Source of the DNA: Firmicutes bacterium UBA5286
Lineage (GTDB): Bacteria > Bacillota > Proteinivoracia > UBA4975
DNA: 64,000 nucleotides
Assembly (NCBI GenBank): GCA_002408465.1
Contig: DHSM01000016.1
Coordinates: forward strand, 10,836-74,835
Direction: 5' to 3'
Position 1 is the first letter of the stretch; every line of letters starts with the position of its first letter. Below are positions 36,009 to 48,243 of the stretch, in pieces. The notes beneath the pieces are model-generated. The model was not told where the DNA came from. It saw only the letters and a program-made list of their open reading frames with translations, and searched no databases. The position numbers and the translations under genes were made by a program.

Positions 36009-36092
36009 CTCTTATCAAGAGCGGTGGAGGGACGGGCCCGATGAAACCCGGCAACCGGCTGAAAGCACGGTGCCAATTCCCGCAGATGAGGG
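36009..36092 (+). ncRNA. SAM-I (S-box) riboswitch aptamer lacking helix P4
   Basis: CTCTTATCAAGAG..GGAGGGAC..GCCCGATGAAACCCGGCAACC..GGTGCCAATTCC-cgc-AGATGAGGG upstream of metK. Confidence 0.93.
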
Positions 36093-41072: not shown

Positions 41073-41266
41073 TGTCCGACAGGTCTGTGGTTGAAAGTCG
41101 ATGCCAGCCGCAGGCAAAACGACCCACGTAAGGCAATGCGTTAGCATTGCTGAGCATGGTGCGGCTTAGATGTAAGTCCTGCCGGGAAAACCGAGAGGGG
41201 CAGTAGTTTTCCGCGAACCCCCCAGCAGGCGAGTGTGGGGGCAAAGACCAGGTCAGCTGTCGGACA
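41073..41266 (+). ncRNA. raiA-motif RNA
   Basis: GGTCTGTGGTTGAAAGTCGATGCCAG..GCAGGCAAAACGA..GAGCATGGTGCGGCTTAG..GTAAGTCCTGCCG..CCAGCAGGCGAGTGTGGGG..AAAGACCAGGTCA; closing stem TGTCCGACAG/CTGTCGGACA; between comF and hpf. Confidence 0.92.
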
Positions 41267-43599: not shown

Positions 43600-44020
43600 G
43601 CGTCTCTATCGCTCGGAGAAAAATCGGCTGGTAGCCGGCGTCTGCGGCGGTCTCGGCCAGTATTTTGCAGTTGATCCCGTCCTTATTCGGCTGGCCTTTG
43701 CCTTGCTGATGGTCTTTAAGTTTTGGCTGGGCTTGATTGCTTATATTCTGGCGGCAATCTTGATTCCGGAAAAAGGCAGCAATCCCGATGACGCCATAGA
43801 ACCTGAAGTTGTGGACCATCCCTACAGTGAGGCTGATTCCGGCTCCCAGCGCATATTGGCAGTTGCTCTCATTTGCGTCGGCGGCGGCCTGCTGCTTTTC
43901 CGTTTCTTTCCCCGAATCCCGGCATTGTCGGGGTACGTCAATATTCTTAAGGTATCTTTCTGGCCTCTGGCCTTAATTGCCCTGGGGATATGGCTTATCT
44001 TCAGGCAGAACAATCATTAA
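43592..44020 (+). CDS. PspC-domain membrane protein
   Basis: KRLYRS..VAGVCGGL..YF. Confidence 0.88.
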   Translation: MNKRLYRSEKNRLVAGVCGGLGQYFAVDPVLIRLAFALLMVFKFWLGLIAYILAAILIPEKGSNPDDAIEPEVVDHPYSEADSGSQRILAVALICVGGGLLLFRFFPRIPALSGYVNILKVSFWPLALIALGIWLIFRQNNH

Positions 44021-44035
44021 AGGAGCTGATATAAA

Positions 44036-44230
44036 ATGGAAACGAAAAAACTGTATCGTTCCCGGAGCGACTCGATGATTTCCGGGGTCTGCGGCGGCCT
44101 GGCCAAGTATTTCGGTTTAGACCCCACCGTGGTGCGTCTGCTTTATGTCCTTTTATCTCTGTTTTCCGTATGTTTCCCCGGTCTGCTCTTCTATATAATC
44201 GCCATGCTGATCATTCCCCTGGAAGACTGA
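44036..44230 (+). CDS. PspC-domain protein (single domain)
   Basis: KKLYRS..ISGVCGGLAKYF. Confidence 0.88.
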   Translation: METKKLYRSRSDSMISGVCGGLAKYFGLDPTVVRLLYVLLSLFSVCFPGLLFYIIAMLIIPLED

Positions 44231-44240
44231 AGGGGTAAGG

Positions 44241-44828
44241 TTGTCACAGCAGGGCTTTGACGTCTTAATTCTGGCAGGGGGCAAGTCCCGGCGCATGGGT
44301 GTAGACAAGGCCGGCATTGTCCTGGCCGGCAAGACGTTGCTGGAACATGTCCTGGACCAGGCTACAAGCTGGGGAGGCAACCGTATTTTGGTGGCAGGCC
44401 CTCCCCGGGACTGGGCGCGGGCGGAATATGTTTCCGACCCGCCTGAGCATCAACCCAGTTCTCTCCGGGGCATTTATGCCGGGCTGCTGGCCAGCAGCAG
44501 CCCTTGGACGCTGGTCACTGGCTGCGACATGCCTTTTGTCAAAAGAGAAGTAGTGGCTCGCTTATGGGCCATCAAAAATCAGGGAGGAGCGGTGGCTTGG
44601 TGGCAAAACCGCCTGCAGCCTCTGCCGGGCTTCTATCCCCGGCTGGCTTCCCAGGTCATTGCCGCAATGCTGGCTGACAACCGCTTTCACCTGGCCAACC
44701 TGCTTGACCGCCTGGAACCGGCAGCTGACCGGGATGTTTCGGCACTTGACCCGGAGGGAATCAGCTTTTTTAATATAAATTCTCCCGCTGACTTGGTCTT
44801 AGCTGAGGAATCGATGCGGCGCCGGTAA
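44241..44828 (+). CDS. mobA: Molybdenum cofactor guanylyltransferase-like
   Basis: LAGGKSRRMG.DK, GCDMP, FFNINSP.D. Confidence 0.85.
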   Translation: MSQQGFDVLILAGGKSRRMGVDKAGIVLAGKTLLEHVLDQATSWGGNRILVAGPPRDWARAEYVSDPPEHQPSSLRGIYAGLLASSSPWTLVTGCDMPFVKREVVARLWAIKNQGGAVAWWQNRLQPLPGFYPRLASQVIAAMLADNRFHLANLLDRLEPAADRDVSALDPEGISFFNINSPADLVLAEESMRRR

Positions 44829-44888
44829 GCGCCCTTTTTTGGTGGGCTGTAATATTATTACAATTATATAAGATTTGGGCTACATCCC

Positions 44889-45073
44889 TGGACAAGCCTT
44901 TTAGCCAAGGGTATAGTAAGGACGATTCCACTGTAATAACTTAGTCCAACCAGGATATCACGCGTTAGATAAACTACATTACTTAGCACTGCATATAGCA
45001 CAAGTCACATTTACTTACTAGTCAGCACACACTGTTCTGGCATCTGCACCAGCTACAGTGGAATCTTTTTTTT
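44889..45073 (+). ncRNA. Candidate sRNA / attenuating leader with its own promoter
   Basis: TGGACA-17-TATAGT; 5' GATTCCACTGTA pairs with TACAGTGGAATC followed by T8. Confidence 0.5.
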
Positions 45074-45110
45074 ATTCATGCGGTTGGCGTAACGGACAGG
45101 AGGGTTTCTA

Positions 45111-45524
45111 ATGGCAATTGAATGGAATGCTTCGCTGTCAGTGGGCATTGAGGAAATCGACAATCAGCATAAGGAATTGTTCCGGCAGATCAATGAGTTG
45201 ATCCATGCCTGTCATCAGGGCAGGGGGGTGGAGGCTGTCGGTGAGGTCCTTTCCTTTCTTGACAGCTATATCCGCCTGCATTTCAGAACCGAAGAAAACC
45301 TCATGCTCAAATACGATTTTCCGGAGTTTCAGGCTCACCGCCTGCAGCACCAGGAATTCATGGCCAACCTGGCTGAGGTTCGCCGCCGTTTTTCTGAAGA
45401 AGGCCCCGGTGTGCACATCGTTGTCATCACTAATCGCATTCTGGCGGGCTGGCTAAATACCCATATTCGCCGCTCGGATAAGATCTTTGGGGCTCACGTT
45501 GAATCCCTGAAAAAAGCGCAATAA
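45111..45524 (+). CDS. Bacteriohemerythrin (single domain)
   Basis: IDNQH, HFRTEE, HRLQH, HIRRSD; terminator 45531-45557. Confidence 0.93.
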   Translation: MAIEWNASLSVGIEEIDNQHKELFRQINELIHACHQGRGVEAVGEVLSFLDSYIRLHFRTEENLMLKYDFPEFQAHRLQHQEFMANLAEVRRRFSEEGPGVHIVVITNRILAGWLNTHIRRSDKIFGAHVESLKKAQ

Positions 45525-45735
45525 TTGATGAAAGAGGAGCAATGGCTCCTCTTTTTGCATTTTTTAGATTGCCTGAGACTCTGGAATAGTCTAGCTGGGT
45601 TTTGACAGGCGGCAAGACTGTGTCAGGCAAAGATTAATACCCTGACTGGGCAAGGCGGTTTCCGGTTGCCAGTGCCTTCTCAATGGTGGTAGAATAAAGA
45701 GAATTGGTACTGACTCTTTTAAATGAGGTGTGAAG

Positions 45736-48243
45736 ATGTTTAAGTTTATCAGGGGGCTTATGGCCGGCGATGATGCCCGGGAAATCAAACAGCTGATGCG
45801 AATTGTGGAAACTGTCAACAGCCTGGAACCCCAGTTTGAGGCCTTAAATACCGACGCTCTGGCTGTCAAAACAGGAGAGTTTAAAGAGCGCCTGTCCCGA
45901 GGGGAAAAACTGGACGACTTGCTGCCCGAGGCCTATGCCCTAGTCCGGGAAGGGGCTAAACGCGCCCTTGGTCAGCGCCATTTTGATGTGCAGGTAGTTG
46001 GAGGGATTGTCCTCCACCAGGGGCGGATTGCCGAAATGAAAACCGGCGAGGGCAAGACCCTGGCCCTGACCATGCCGGCCTATCTCAATGCTTTGTCAGG
46101 CAAGGGCGTGCATGTGGTCACCGTCAACGACTATCTTGCCCGCTTCCACAGCCAGTGGATGGGACGGGTATATAATTTGTTGAATCTGGAGGTAGGCCTC
46201 ATTGTCCATGGCATTAATCCCGAAGAGCGCCGGCAATCCTATGAGGCAGACATTACTTACGGCACTAATAATGAGTTCGGCTTTGACTATCTCCGGGATA
46301 ATATGGTGCTGTACAAAGAACATCTGGTGCAGCGCCCCCTGCATTTTGCCATTGTCGACGAGGTGGACAGCATCCTCATCGATGAGGCCCGCACTCCTTT
46401 GATTATTTCCGGGGCCATTGACCAGGATACCAGCCAGTATTACCGCTATGCCAAGCTGGTGCCCCGCCTCCGCTCCGAGACGGAGTACACATTGGATGAA
46501 AAAACCCGGACGGTGACCCTGACGGAAGAGGGCGTGGCCAAGATGGAAAAGGCCCTCAATCTTGAAAATCTGTATGATGACGTAAATATGGAGATCTCCC
46601 ATCATGTCAATCAGGCCCTGCGGGCCCATGTGCTCATGAAGAGGGACCGGGACTATGTGGTCAAGGACGGACAGGTCATCATCGTTGATGAGTTTACCGG
46701 CCGCCTGATGTTTGGCCGCCGTTATTCCAACGGCCTCCACCAGGCCATTGAGGCCAAGGAGGGCGTCAAGATCGAGCGGGAGAGCCAGACCCTGGCCAGC
46801 ATTACTCTCCAAAACTACTTCCGCATGTATGAAAAACTCTCAGGGCTAACCGGCACAGCCAAAACCGAGGAAGATGAGTTCCGTAAGATTTACGGCATGG
46901 ATGTGGTGGTCATTCCCACAAACCGGCCGATGATACGCAAGGCTTTGTCTGATGTGGTCTATCGCACTGAGAAAGGGAAATTCAAGGCGGTGGTGGAGGA
47001 AATAGTAGCGCGCCACAGCACCGGACAGCCCTTGCTGGTTGGGACAATATCCATCGAAAAATCTGAGCTCTTAAGCGATATGCTTAAAAAACGGGGTATT
47101 TCTCATGATGTCCTCAATGCCAAGCAACATGAGCGGGAAGCGGAAATAGTAGCTCAGGCGGGATGCAAAGGGGCTGTAACCATTGCCACCAACATGGCCG
47201 GCCGGGGCACGGACATCATTCTCGAAGAAGGAGTTGCCCAGCTGGGTGGCCTGCACATTCTGGGCACTGAACGCCACGAGGCCCGCCGCATCGACAACCA
47301 GCTCCGGGGCCGTTCCGGCCGCCAGGGCGATCCGGGTTCCTCCCAGTTCTTCATCTCTTTGGAAGATGATCTCATGCGCCTCTTTGGCTCCGAGCGCTTT
47401 TTGGGCATGATGGATAAGCTAGGGATGGATGATTCCATTCCCATTGAGCATCCTCTGCTTTCAAAGGCGATTGAATCCGCCCAGAAGCGGGTGGAAGGCC
47501 GCAACTTTGACATCCGCAAACATGTGCTGGAATACGATGATGTCATGAACAAGCAGCGTGAGGTCATATACCGGCAGCGCCGGGAGATTCTTGAGGGCGG
47601 AAACATTAAAAACCAGATTCTCAAGATGATTGATGATGTGATTGACAGGGCTGCTGATACTTGGGCCAGCAAAAATGTGTATGCTGAGGAATACGACCTC
47701 AAGGGACTGGCAGAATATATGGAAAGCAATGTCCTGGTTCCCGGCAGCGTCAAACAGGCTGACCTGGCAGGCAAGCACTCTGATGAAATTCGGGAATGGC
47801 TGGCCAAGCGTGTGCGGGAACTGTATGCCATCCGGGAGGAGGCAGTGGGCAGCGAGGTCATGCGGGAACTGGAGCGGGTAGTGGTGCTGCGCACTGTCGA
47901 CCGCAAGTGGATGGATCAGCTGGTAGCCATGGACGATTTGCGTCAGGGCATTGGACTCAGGGCCTTTGGCCAGAAAGATCCCCTGACTGAATACAAATTT
48001 GAGGCCTATGACATGTTCAACAATATGACGGAAAGCATTCAGGAAGAAGTGGCCCGCCTCATTCTCCGGGTGCAGTTGGCCAACAAGCCCCTGCGCCGCT
48101 CGGTGGCGGTGGCAAATCCTACTCCTCCCAGCGGAGGCGGCGGCACCGGACCAGCCAGGTCCGCCAAGACCAAGGTGGGACGCAACGATCCATGTCCCTG
48201 CGGCAGCGGGAAAAAATACAAGCGCTGTTGCGGACAGCAATAG
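45736..48243 (+). CDS. secA: Preprotein translocase ATPase SecA
   Basis: [48 protein letters not shown]. Confidence 0.98.

What the first reader, a model, noticed from the sequence alone, without database searches (positions are those of the whole stretch)
44889..45073. Promoter-to-polyU RNA of about 145 nt whose first 12 nt pair with its last 12: new sRNA sponge or attenuator for hemerythrin
Seen: TGGACA-17-TATAGT predicts +1 at about 44924, exactly where GATTCCACTGTA begins; its perfect complement TACAGTGGAATC (45054-45065) is followed by T8. The 118-nt interior is G-poor and repetitive (AGCAC at 44985, 44997, 45024; ACTTAG at 44939, 44981). A local CACTGT (45030) offers a competing pairing with ACAGTG. 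Inference: either a protein-titrating sRNA with an open repeat-bearing loop, or a protein-switched attenuator gating the O2-binding hemerythrin gene 45 nt downstream.
Basis: partly seen in the sequence, partly recalled or inferred. Interest (0 to 1): 0.65.

Follow-up and report, generated by a model that had tools for sequence, protein, structure and literature searches.

The report
Domesticated MITE turned leader/terminator RNA
The predicted ~150-nt RNA is most likely real, but it is an old, single-copy relic of a small mobile DNA element that landed at the start of a hemerythrin operon, was kept as a folded 5' leader, and in this genus gained a U-run that makes it a terminator and probably a small RNA of its own.

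Summary
The AGCAC and ACTTAG repeats are at chance level and are not conserved.

The promoter, the 12-nt arms and the T-run are invariant in all 5 species of the genus. Three of those species have no hemerythrin gene, so this is not a dedicated hemerythrin attenuator. In sister genera the same promoter and panhandle form the 5' leader of a membrane-protein plus hemerythrin operon, with no T-run. Some relatives have the same promoter and operon but no leader.

Across 14 orthologues the 5'-3' stem is 95% paired and four pairs changed on both sides. The interior diverges about as fast as secA four-fold sites but has G below C in all 12 computed.

The arms match the termini of a MITE family. That family has termini GATTCCACTGCAAAAA, 6-bp target duplications and 27-57 end matches per Syntrophomonas genome. 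The window's class holds only this one copy per genome.

Best reading: a domesticated MITE acts as a 5' panhandle leader, and the genus-specific U8 converts it into an intrinsic terminator giving a ~150-nt RNA. Hemerythrin is then expressed by read-through. No expression data could be obtained. CsrA sponge, 6S, Y RNA and Rho-site readings are excluded.

The parts
44818..44842 (+). Intrinsic terminator of the upstream mobA-like gene. It separates mobA from the unit.
   Evidence: GGCGCC-GGTAA-GCGCC followed by CTTTTTTGG. MobA-like Pfam PF12804.
44848..44862 (.). 7-1-7 palindrome TGTAATA-T-TATTACA centred near -69. Probable transcription-factor site of the operon promoter.
   Evidence: The left half is invariant in the genus. 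TGTAACA-C-TGTTACA or TGTTACA stands at the same place in sister genera and in leaderless operons. It is unique in the genome at 0 mismatches.
44864..44884 (.). Second conserved upstream box (TTATATAAGATTTGGGCTACA; family consensus ATATTAGAAWTTGGCWACA).
   Evidence: Collinear in all 14 orthologous promoters.
44889..44917 (+). Sigma-A-type promoter TGGACA-17-TATAGT. This is the native promoter of the hemerythrin operon and lies outside the mobile-element relic.
   Evidence: The -35 and -10 hexamers are kept in all 5 genus species; L131 differs in both (CTCGCC, TATCGT). An extended -10 TG is present in 13 of 14 orthologues. The spacing from -10 to G1 is a constant 6 nt in 14 of 14. The same promoter drives leaderless operons.
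44924..44935 (+). 5' arm GAUUCCACUGUA. It is the left terminal inverted repeat of the MITE relic and the predicted first nucleotides of the RNA.
   Evidence: Invariant in the genus. Pairs with 45054-45065. Matches the MITE terminus GATTCCACTGC.
44936..45053 (+). G-poor (14% G) interior loop of 118 nt with no ORF. Its sequence evolves about as fast as secA four-fold degenerate sites.
   Evidence: G is 10-20% and below C in all 12 orthologues computed; interior identity 0.57-0.75 against 0.45-0.77 at secA four-fold sites.
45030..45060 (+). Local competing or nucleating hairpin CACUGU-U-CUGG[8 nt]CCAG-CU-ACAGUG. It uses the same 3' strand as the closing stem and ends 5 nt before the U-run.
   Evidence: -13.2 kcal/mol. 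Present in all 6 genus-level sequences, in a shifted form in G002 (CCACUGUA-CCAGU-UACAGUGG). CACTGT is absent from the interiors of the terminator-less leaders, though L143/L144 have a different local competitor (UUCCAC...GUGGAA).
45054..45065 (+). 3' arm UACAGUGGAAUC. It is the right terminal inverted repeat of the MITE relic.
   Evidence: Covariation with the 5' arm is shown.
45066..45073 (+). U8 tract directly after the closing stem. With the stem it forms an intrinsic terminator. It is specific to this genus.
   Evidence: T8 or T9 in 5 of 5 genus species. Degraded to TTATCTTTAATATT in L131. Absent in all sister-genus leaders. No Rho gene in the genome.
45098..45524 (+). Shine-Dalgarno AGGAGGG and the bacteriohemerythrin gene (137 aa). 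It has no promoter of its own.
   Evidence: 89% amino-acid identity against 71% four-fold identity to L131, which indicates purifying selection.
45530..45565 (+). Hemerythrin terminator. Its homologue stands directly after the RNA in species that lost hemerythrin.
   Evidence: Compare G004 and G002.

Best explanation
The segment 44924-45065 is an ancient, single-copy relic of a miniature inverted-repeat transposable element (MITE).

Related copies have termini GATTCCACTGCAAAAA and 6-bp target duplications, and are scattered through Syntrophomonas and related genomes. One copy inserted 6 nt downstream of the -10 box of the promoter of a small-membrane-protein plus hemerythrin operon, in an ancestor of this bacterial family. 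(Inferred from terminus identity and single-copy orthology.)

It is therefore transcribed from its first base as the 5' leader. (Inferred; no RNA data.) Its two terminal repeats pair into a 12-bp stem that includes the very 5' end of the transcript and loops out a G-poor, unstructured 73-118 nt. (Pairing shown by covariation.)

Selection has kept this panhandle. The most likely reason is that a base-paired 5' end shields the RNA from 5'-end-dependent decay (RNase J / RppH type). (Inferred.)

In the genus of this window the membrane-protein gene was lost and a U8 run arose directly after the 3' arm. (Shown by comparison.) The panhandle, nucleated by a small local hairpin on the same 3' strand, therefore acts as a Rho-independent terminator. 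(Inferred.)

Most transcripts would end as a stable ~150-nt RNA with paired ends and a U tail. Hemerythrin, which has no promoter of its own, is made from the fraction that reads through. The choice between the local hairpin (5 nt short of the U-run, a poor terminator) and the 5'-arm pairing (flush with the U-run, a good terminator) would set that fraction.

Promoter, arms and U-run stay intact in three species that deleted hemerythrin. The RNA therefore probably also has a function of its own, possibly with Hfq. (Inferred, about even odds.)
For: Conservation:
- Homologues lie between mobA and secA in all 4 other species of the genus. Promoter, arms and T8 are invariant.
- secA four-fold sites are only 0.53-0.55 identical between G000 and G004/G002 (0.45-0.77 over all ten genus pairs). 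The RNA interior is 0.57-0.75 identical. Arms, T-run and the -35 hexamer are 100% identical in the five genus species, with one change in the -10 of G004 (TATATT).

Leader homology:
- G006, G005, L132, L134, L136, L139, L143 and L144 have the same promoter and panhandle. It is followed 16-18 nt later by the SD of a 93-aa membrane protein and then hemerythrin, with no T-run.
- L141, L142, L145 and G009 have the same promoter and operon without the insert.

Stem:
- 14 orthologues are 95% paired. Four pairs changed on both sides. Single-sided changes in pairs 1-11 all give G-U. Only 6-7 of 500 shuffles do as well, and slid controls pair 16-44%.
- The closing stem has probability about 1 in the folding ensemble in 9 of 14 sequences and at least 0.8 in 13 of 14; G005 is the exception at 0.15.

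MITE origin:
- A pattern scan found two-strand matches in Syntrophomonas, Syntrophomonadaceae, Thermacetogenium, Heliobacterium and a Bacillota MAG.
- The 15-mer terminus occurs 57, 27 and 17 times in three of those genomes, against 0 for the reversed control.
- Copies of 57-422 bp have 6-bp direct duplications.
- The element boundaries defined by the duplications coincide with G1 and the last C of the RNA stem.
- There is one copy per genome in the whole 16-genome class.

Terminator and read-through:
- There is no Rho gene.
- There is no promoter between T8 and the hemerythrin ATG.
- Hemerythrin is under purifying selection.
- The SecA tree puts the T8 gain at the base of the genus, with its loss in L131 and hemerythrin loss in G001, G002 and G004.
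- An Hfq gene is present.
Against: - No transcript data.
- A terminator hairpin with a 118-nt loop is atypical. The consensus scan did not call it.
- The window copy has no recognisable target-site duplication. Only the outer 12 nt match the MITE termini, so homology rests on the exact coincidence of boundaries and the A-rich subterminal similarity.
- No parent insertion sequence or transposase was found.
- The date of the hemerythrin deletions is unknown. Conservation of the RNA in those species could partly be a legacy of recent loss.
- Only 14 related sequences are available, and the covariation control is not a probability.
- The stem sequence, especially UUCC/GGAA, is more conserved than pairing alone requires. 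A sequence-specific partner may exist that I have not identified.
Confidence: 0.58

Rival explanations
1. A factor-switched attenuator dedicated to hemerythrin. A protein, a small RNA or a condition such as O2 stress binds the 5' arm or the loop. That favours the local hairpin, which is not flush with the U-run, and switches on read-through into hemerythrin. The short RNA would be only a by-product.
For: Hemerythrin has no promoter of its own and is under purifying selection, so read-through must occur. Mutually exclusive pairings of one 3' strand are conserved in the genus. In L131, which keeps hemerythrin, the U-run has decayed. The element derives from the leader of the hemerythrin operon.
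Against: Three of five species keep promoter, arms, competitor hairpin and T8 with no hemerythrin downstream, only a second terminator. The interior, where a sensor would sit, diverges about as fast as secA four-fold sites and cannot be aligned between genera. No Rfam family matches.
Confidence: 0.2
2. A free-standing trans-acting or protein-titrating small RNA. Its open G-poor loop would carry the functional motifs.
For: There is a discrete promoter-to-terminator unit kept without hemerythrin. The loop is unstructured and there is a U tail. An Hfq gene is present. One weakly conserved loop motif, CYACCUUA, occurs in the genus.
Against: AGCAC and ACTTAG repeats are at chance level and are not conserved. 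GGA motifs number 0-2 and are absent in G003, and there is no CsrA gene. Loop sequence identity is about equal to that of synonymous sites, which is unlike seed regions of known sRNAs. Sister genera use the same element as a plain 5' UTR.
Confidence: 0.12
3. A functionless MITE fossil. The insertion is tolerated because its ends pair and loop it out of the 5' UTR, and the T-run is incidental.
For: MITE origin. Some relatives run the same operon without it. The interior diverges about as fast as secA four-fold sites.
Against: The arms (28 nt), the T8 and the -35 hexamer are identical across genus species whose four-fold sites are about 54% identical, and the -10 has one change in G004. Under neutrality this has a chance below 1e-8. 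Changes in the stem are compensatory or G-U only. Active MITE copies in S. wolfei tolerate mismatched ends, whereas the orthologues do not. G stays below C in the interior of all 12 orthologues computed, despite sequence turnover.
Confidence: 0.06
4. A DNA-level function. The two arms would be inverted binding sites for a DNA-binding protein (an operator pair or a domesticated transposase) that loops or blocks the promoter-proximal DNA.
For: The arm sequence is conserved more strongly than pairing alone demands (UUCC/GGAA invariant in 14 of 14). The left arm overlaps +1 to +12.
Against: Arm-to-arm distance varies by 5 and by about 15 bp within the genus and by more than 40 bp in the family, so there is no helical phasing. 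Single-sided changes in pairs 1-11 all give G-U, which matters only in RNA. No transposase partner was found, and the element is single-copy in the class.
Confidence: 0.04

Closest known systems
Correia repeat-enclosed elements (CREE) of Neisseria, and similar bacterial MITEs (ERIC, RUP, BOX, bcr1 of the Bacillus cereus group)
   Same: A short non-coding element bounded by terminal inverted repeats, with target-site duplications in the active family. When inserted in a transcribed region the repeats fold into a hairpin in the RNA, which can change mRNA fate or act as a terminator (from my own knowledge of that literature).
   Different: Here there is a single orthologous copy per genome, kept at one site across a bacterial family. 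It shows compensatory changes, sits exactly at +1 of a promoter, and in one genus is converted into a promoter-to-terminator RNA gene that outlives its downstream gene. No RNase III or other processing was tested. The MITE family itself (GATTCCACTGCAAAAA termini, 6-bp duplications) was not found in the literature searched.
5'-UTR-derived small RNAs made by premature intrinsic termination, such as riboswitch-derived sRNAs like Listeria SreA/SreB, and attenuator products
   Same: One promoter gives a short terminated RNA plus a read-through mRNA. The short RNA may act on its own.
   Different: There is no conserved aptamer or leader peptide. The terminator's upstream arm is the 5' end of the transcript, 118 nt away. 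The element has a mobile-element origin. In three species only the short RNA remains.
5'-terminal stabiliser stem-loops of Firmicute mRNAs (ermC and aprE leader type)
   Same: A stem that includes or nearly includes the first nucleotide. It is expected to block 5'-end-dependent decay.
   Different: Those are compact hairpins. Here the stem closes a 73-118-nt G-poor loop, and stabilisation has not been measured.
6S RNA, bacterial Y RNA and CsrB-type sponges (RNAs with paired ends or open loops)
   Same: Paired 5' and 3' ends (6S, Y RNA), or an open loop proposed to bind protein (CsrB).
   Different: There is no Rfam match. A canonical 6S gene lies elsewhere. There is no Rsr/TROVE gene and no CsrA gene. 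Repeated GGA motifs are absent.

Membership tests
MITE (miniature inverted-repeat transposable element) | Terminal inverted repeats shared with a dispersed repeat family | tested here: met
   The outer 11-12 nt of both arms equal the termini of elements found 17-57 times per genome in Syntrophomonas-type genomes.
MITE (miniature inverted-repeat transposable element) | Target-site duplication flanking the copy | tested here: not met
   The window copy has AAGGAC on one side and TTTTTT on the other, and no duplication is seen in any of the 14 orthologues. Active relatives do have clear 6-bp duplications. This is consistent with an old insertion but does not prove it.
MITE (miniature inverted-repeat transposable element) | Multiple copies in the host genome | tested here: not met
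   There is one copy in G000 and one per genome in the 16-genome class. It is therefore a relic, not an active member.
MITE (miniature inverted-repeat transposable element) | Small size, no coding capacity, presence/absence polymorphism at the site among relatives | tested here: met
   The element is 142 bp with no ATG or TTG in the RNA strand. Empty sites with the same promoter and operon occur in L141, L142, L145 and G009.
Rho-independent (intrinsic) terminator | Stable stem immediately followed by a U-run | tested here: met
   A 12-bp stem (5 G-C pairs) is flush with U8. The U-run is conserved in 5 of 5 genus species.
Rho-independent (intrinsic) terminator | Compact hairpin (short loop) | tested here: not met
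   The loop is 118 nt and the consensus scan does not call it. A compact local hairpin exists but ends 5 nt before the U-run.
Rho-independent (intrinsic) terminator | Transcripts end in the U-run | not testable with these tools
Riboswitch / regulated attenuator | Conserved sensor (aptamer, leader peptide or protein site) | tested here: not met
   The interior diverges about as fast as secA four-fold sites and cannot be aligned between genera. There is no Rfam hit and no ORF.
Riboswitch / regulated attenuator | Mutually exclusive terminator and anti-terminator pairings | tested here: inconclusive
   The 5' arm and the internal CACUGU compete for one 3' strand in all 6 genus-level sequences. Whether the local hairpin prevents or nucleates termination is unknown.
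Riboswitch / regulated attenuator | Constant association with the regulated gene | tested here: not met
   Hemerythrin is absent downstream in G004, G002 and G001.
CsrB/RsmZ-type protein sponge | Many GGA motifs in loops and a CsrA partner | tested here: not met
   There are 0-2 GGA per interior and none in G003. No CsrA gene was found.
6S RNA | Match to the 6S model, with a largely double-stranded rod and central bubble | tested here: not met
   There is no Rfam hit at E up to 10. The G-poor interior cannot form a rod. A canonical 6S lies at G000:C3:50094-50277.
Bacterial Y RNA | Rsr (Ro, TROVE) partner gene | tested here: not met
   No TROVE match in the genome.
Rho-utilisation (rut) leader | Rho factor present | tested here: not met
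   No Rho RNA-binding domain was found in a 97% complete genome.
Hfq-associated sRNA | Terminator stem plus a tail of 6 or more U, and an Hfq gene | tested here: met
   U8 follows the stem. Hfq lies at G000:C12:139710-139898.
Hfq-associated sRNA | Conserved seed and Hfq binding | tested here: inconclusive
   There is only a weak CYACCUUA motif within the genus. Binding is not testable here.

The most novel reading that the evidence does not exclude
A bacterial MITE has been fully domesticated into a regulatory RNA gene. It is a promoter-to-terminator small RNA whose terminator hairpin is closed by the transcript's own 5' end. Termination could then report on the state of the 5' end or on what binds it. 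The RNA has been kept by selection, together with its upstream regulator site, after its original cis target (hemerythrin) was deleted in two or three lineages. That would imply a trans function, perhaps with Hfq, in an oxygen-stress regulon of strict anaerobes.
Probability: 0.3. Interest if true: 0.6.

Novelty: new variant of a known kind. Interest (0 to 1): 0.42.

Why it matters
Bacterial MITEs are known to alter expression when they land in transcribed DNA. Cases where one copy is shown by comparative evidence to have been kept by selection are rare. Here there is orthology across a family, compensatory base changes, and empty sites in relatives.

This locus shows three stages side by side in living lineages. 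The first is the empty promoter. The second is the MITE as a folded 5' leader. The third is the MITE plus a U-run acting as a terminator or small-RNA gene, with and without the downstream gene.

That makes it a usable natural series for asking how new regulatory RNAs and terminators arise from mobile DNA. It also serves as a warning that 'new sRNA' predictions built on terminal complementarity should be checked against repeat families in related genomes.

Tried and rejected
- Rfam, permissive scan of 44000-46000 and gathering scan of the window. Nothing matched the element; only raiA and SAM elsewhere.
- Multi-copy repeat in the own genome. Rejected: single copy, arms unique.
- Covariance model R1 from the 5 genus sequences. 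It found only those 5 in the 16-genome class and missed the diverged leaders of G005 and G006.
- Metagenome scan with the SecA N-terminus.
- 6S RNA, Y RNA, CsrA sponge and Rho rut site. Each was rejected by a partner-gene or model search.
- Regulon search for the upstream palindrome in the genome. No other good site was found.
- SD sequestration by the leader. Results were inconsistent between species. The SD-masking hairpin in relatives pairs with codons 4-7 of the membrane-protein gene instead.
- Search for a full-length parent insertion sequence.
- Literature searches for the MITE termini, Syntrophomonas MITEs, and hemerythrin leaders or sRNAs. Nothing relevant was found.
- Public RNA-seq look-up.
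- DNA looping between the arms. Rejected, because the spacing is not phased.

Full report
**1. The observation**

- TGGACA at 44889, a 17-nt spacer, and TATAGT at 44912-44917.
- GATTCCACTGTA at 44924-44935, beginning 7 nt after the -10 box.
- Its perfect complement TACAGTGGAATC at 45054-45065, followed by T8 at 45066-45073.
- An internal CACTGT at 45030.
- The hemerythrin start at 45111 (Pfam PF01814).

The promoter is the only sigma-70-like site between mobA and the secA promoter. mobA has its own terminator at 44818-44842.

The 150-nt RNA folds with the 12-bp closing stem at -34.6 kcal/mol (z = -3.8). The interior is 14% G, against 28% for the window.

Two cautions apply:
- A perfect 12-nt inverted repeat within 200 nt is expected about 0.8 times by chance in 64 kb. 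This is the only long-spacer one in the window, so it is not significant by itself.
- The AGCAC and ACTTAG repeats are matched by 27% of shuffles and do not recur in any relative.

**2. Conservation in the genus, with or without hemerythrin**

The element is single-copy in its genome. It has no Rfam match.

All four other species of the genus carry it between mobA and secA. In the alignments these features are invariant or nearly so:
- the -35 and -10 boxes, with an extended -10 TG in 4 of 5;
- the first 14 nt;
- the last 10 nt;
- the T8 or T9 run.

The interior varies.

Only G000 and G003 have hemerythrin downstream. In G004, G002 and G001 the T-run is followed within 20-40 nt by a second terminator and then the secA promoter. 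In G004 and G002 the junction looks like a deletion between the hemerythrin SD (GGAGG) and the GGAGG of the hemerythrin terminator stem. The element is therefore not a device that exists only for hemerythrin.

**3. It is homologous to a 5' leader**

In sister genera of the same family (G006, G005) and in eight further assemblies found through hemerythrin homologues, the same collinear promoter region is present. This includes a 7-1-7 palindrome near -69 and a second box.

The promoter is followed, after exactly 6 nt in 14 of 14 cases, by GRTTCCACTGYA. Then come 73-118 nt and then YRCAGTGGAAYC.

Outside the window's genus there is no T-run. The 3' arm is followed 16-18 nt later by the SD of a 93-aa membrane protein without Pfam match, then hemerythrin, then secA.

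Four relatives (L141, L142, L145, G009) have the same promoter and operon with a short 5' UTR and no insert.

**4. The stem is an RNA structure under selection**

On the 14 orthologues, 95% of cells pair. Four of the 12 pairs show changes on both sides:
- position 2: A-U, G-U and G-C;
- position 7: A-U and G-C;
- position 10: G-C and A-U;
- position 11: U-A, U-G and C-G.

Single-sided changes in pairs 1-11 all give G-U; the terminal pair 12 is the only one with unpaired single-sided changes. Slid controls pair only 16-44%, and 6-7 of 500 shuffles reach the observed values.

The closing stem has probability about 1 in the folding ensemble in 9 of 14 sequences and at least 0.8 in 13 of 14; G005 is the exception at 0.15.

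Within the genus, secA four-fold degenerate sites are 0.45-0.77 identical. The RNA interior is 0.57-0.75 identical, so it diverges at about the same rate. Arms, T-run and the -35 hexamer are 100% identical in the five genus species, and the -10 has one change in G004.

The interior nevertheless stays G-poor, at 10-20% G with G below C in all 12 orthologues computed. It has no ORF.

Composition and pairing are therefore constrained, and loop sequence is not. That argues against a riboswitch pocket, a protein-specific site or a classic seed in the loop.

**5. Origin: a MITE**

A pattern made from the arm cores was scanned over one genome per prokaryotic species. It gave many one-strand chance hits. 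It also gave two-strand hits in these genomes:
- Syntrophomonas wolfei subsp. methylbutyratica (two loci);
- other Syntrophomonas and Syntrophomonadaceae MAGs;
- Thermacetogenium;
- Heliobacterium mobile;
- a Bacillota MAG.

These elements share longer termini (GATTCCACTGCAAAAA...TTTTTGCAGTGGAATC).

The 15-mer terminus occurs 57, 27 and 17 times in three of those genomes, against 0 for the reversed control.

Copies range from 57 to 422 bp. They are flanked by 6-bp direct duplications such as ATAGTT, AATCAT, ATAATT, AATATT, AATTTT, ACACAA, AAAGTT and ACCGTT. That is the signature of a MITE.

The ends defined by those duplications coincide exactly with G1 and the last C of the RNA stem in the window. 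The subterminal A-rich stretch (AATAAC or ATAAAC against AAAAAC) is also shared.

In the window's whole class (16 genomes) only the one orthologous copy exists. Active S. wolfei copies often have mismatched ends (GATTCCACTGC against GACTCTACTGC). The orthologues keep their ends complementary, which again points to selection on the RNA after domestication.

I found no target duplication around the window copy and no parent insertion sequence. The MITE origin is therefore a strong inference, about 0.8, and not a demonstration. I could not compare sequences with it.

**6. History within the genus**

A SecA tree gives (G001,(G002,(G000,G003,L131,G004))), nested among the leader-bearing lineages.

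The most parsimonious history is as follows. The membrane-protein gene was lost and the U-run gained at the base of the genus. The U-run then decayed in L131, which keeps hemerythrin directly after the leader (TTATCTTTAATATT). Hemerythrin was deleted in G001, G002 and G004 while the RNA unit stayed intact.

Hemerythrin in G000 is under purifying selection: 89% amino-acid identity against 71% four-fold identity to L131. It has no promoter of its own. The U8 site must therefore let some polymerases through.

**7. Mechanism proposed**

Shown by comparison:
- a conserved promoter;
- a conserved 5'-3' stem with covariation;
- a genus-specific U-run flush with that stem;
- a second, local hairpin (CACUGU-CUGG...CCAG-ACAGUG, -13 to -16 kcal/mol) on the same 3' strand in all six genus-level sequences. 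It stands in a different register in G002 and ends 4-5 nt short of the U-run, except in G004 where it extends into it.

Inferred:
- Transcription starts at G44924.
- The G-poor loop cannot sequester the C-containing 5' arm, which stays free until the 3' arm emerges.
- Pairing of the 5' arm extends the helix to the U-run and terminates transcription. The organism has no Rho, so termination must be intrinsic.
- The local hairpin alone is a poor terminator, so the competition sets the read-through fraction that makes hemerythrin.
- The released RNA has both ends paired plus a U tail, and should be stable in a Firmicute with 5'-exonucleolytic decay.
- In sister genera the same panhandle would simply protect and compact the operon's 5' UTR.

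Whether anything switches the competition is unknown. An Hfq gene is present. CsrA, Rsr and Rho are absent, and a canonical 6S RNA lies elsewhere.

**8. Verdict**

The 'sponge with repeats' reading is not supported. The 'hemerythrin attenuator' reading is half right: read-through is required in this genome, but the unit outlives the gene.

The thing itself is best described as a domesticated MITE serving as a panhandle leader, converted in this genus into a terminator and small-RNA gene. This is a new variant of a known kind (MITE hairpins in transcripts, 5'-UTR-derived sRNAs).

Its main value is as a clean evolutionary series.

Noticed in passing
window 44848-44884: A perfect 7-1-7 palindrome TGTAATA-T-TATTACA near -69 and a second box (consensus ATATTAGAAWTTGGCWACA) are collinear in all 14 orthologous promoters, including the leaderless operons and the hemerythrin-less species. 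They probably mark a dedicated transcription factor of the hemerythrin operon. The palindrome has no second good site in the genome.
   Followed up: partly
L143 ~1196-1235, L144 ~428-465, L132, L136, G006 (L039 ~650-690): In relatives the SD (GGGGAGG) of the 93-aa membrane-protein gene is predicted to pair with codons 4-7 of that gene (GAAUUUUCCC). This gives a near-zero unpaired probability, so translation may be masked by an SD-sequestering hairpin. Two of the three leaderless operons checked (L141, L142) lack the complementary codons; L145 has them.
   Followed up: partly
L282-L304 (Syntrophomonas wolfei subsp. methylbutyratica, G061) and L294-L301 (Syntrophomonas sp., G068): An apparently undescribed MITE family. 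Termini are GATTCCACTGCAAAAA, target duplications are 6 bp and AT-rich, lengths are 57-422 bp, and internal TGCATAAATAT motifs occur. There are 27-57 end matches per genome, and modular internal blocks differ in number between copies. No parent insertion sequence was found.
   Followed up: partly
L003 ~1480-1500 and L004 ~1485-1510 (G004, G002): The hemerythrin deletions in two species look like recombination between the GGAGG of the gene's Shine-Dalgarno and the GGAGG in its terminator stem. This removes the ORF almost exactly.
   Followed up: partly
whole genome G000: No Rho factor and no CsrA gene were detected in a 97% complete genome. Hfq is present at C12:139710-139898.
   Followed up: yes
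window 41074-41265 and 36009-36092: A raiA-motif RNA (191 bits) lies upstream of the hpf region, and there is a SAM-I riboswitch (73 bits). These are the only Rfam families above gathering score in the window.
   Followed up: no
L143 1989-2714, L144 1231-1959: In two relatives a ribonuclease (PF00545) plus barstar (PF01337) pair is inserted on the opposite strand between hemerythrin and secA.
   Followed up: no
L131 1045-1500: In this genus-level assembly the mobA gene is missing. The leader follows the second PspC gene directly, so the unit is independent of mobA as well.
   Followed up: no
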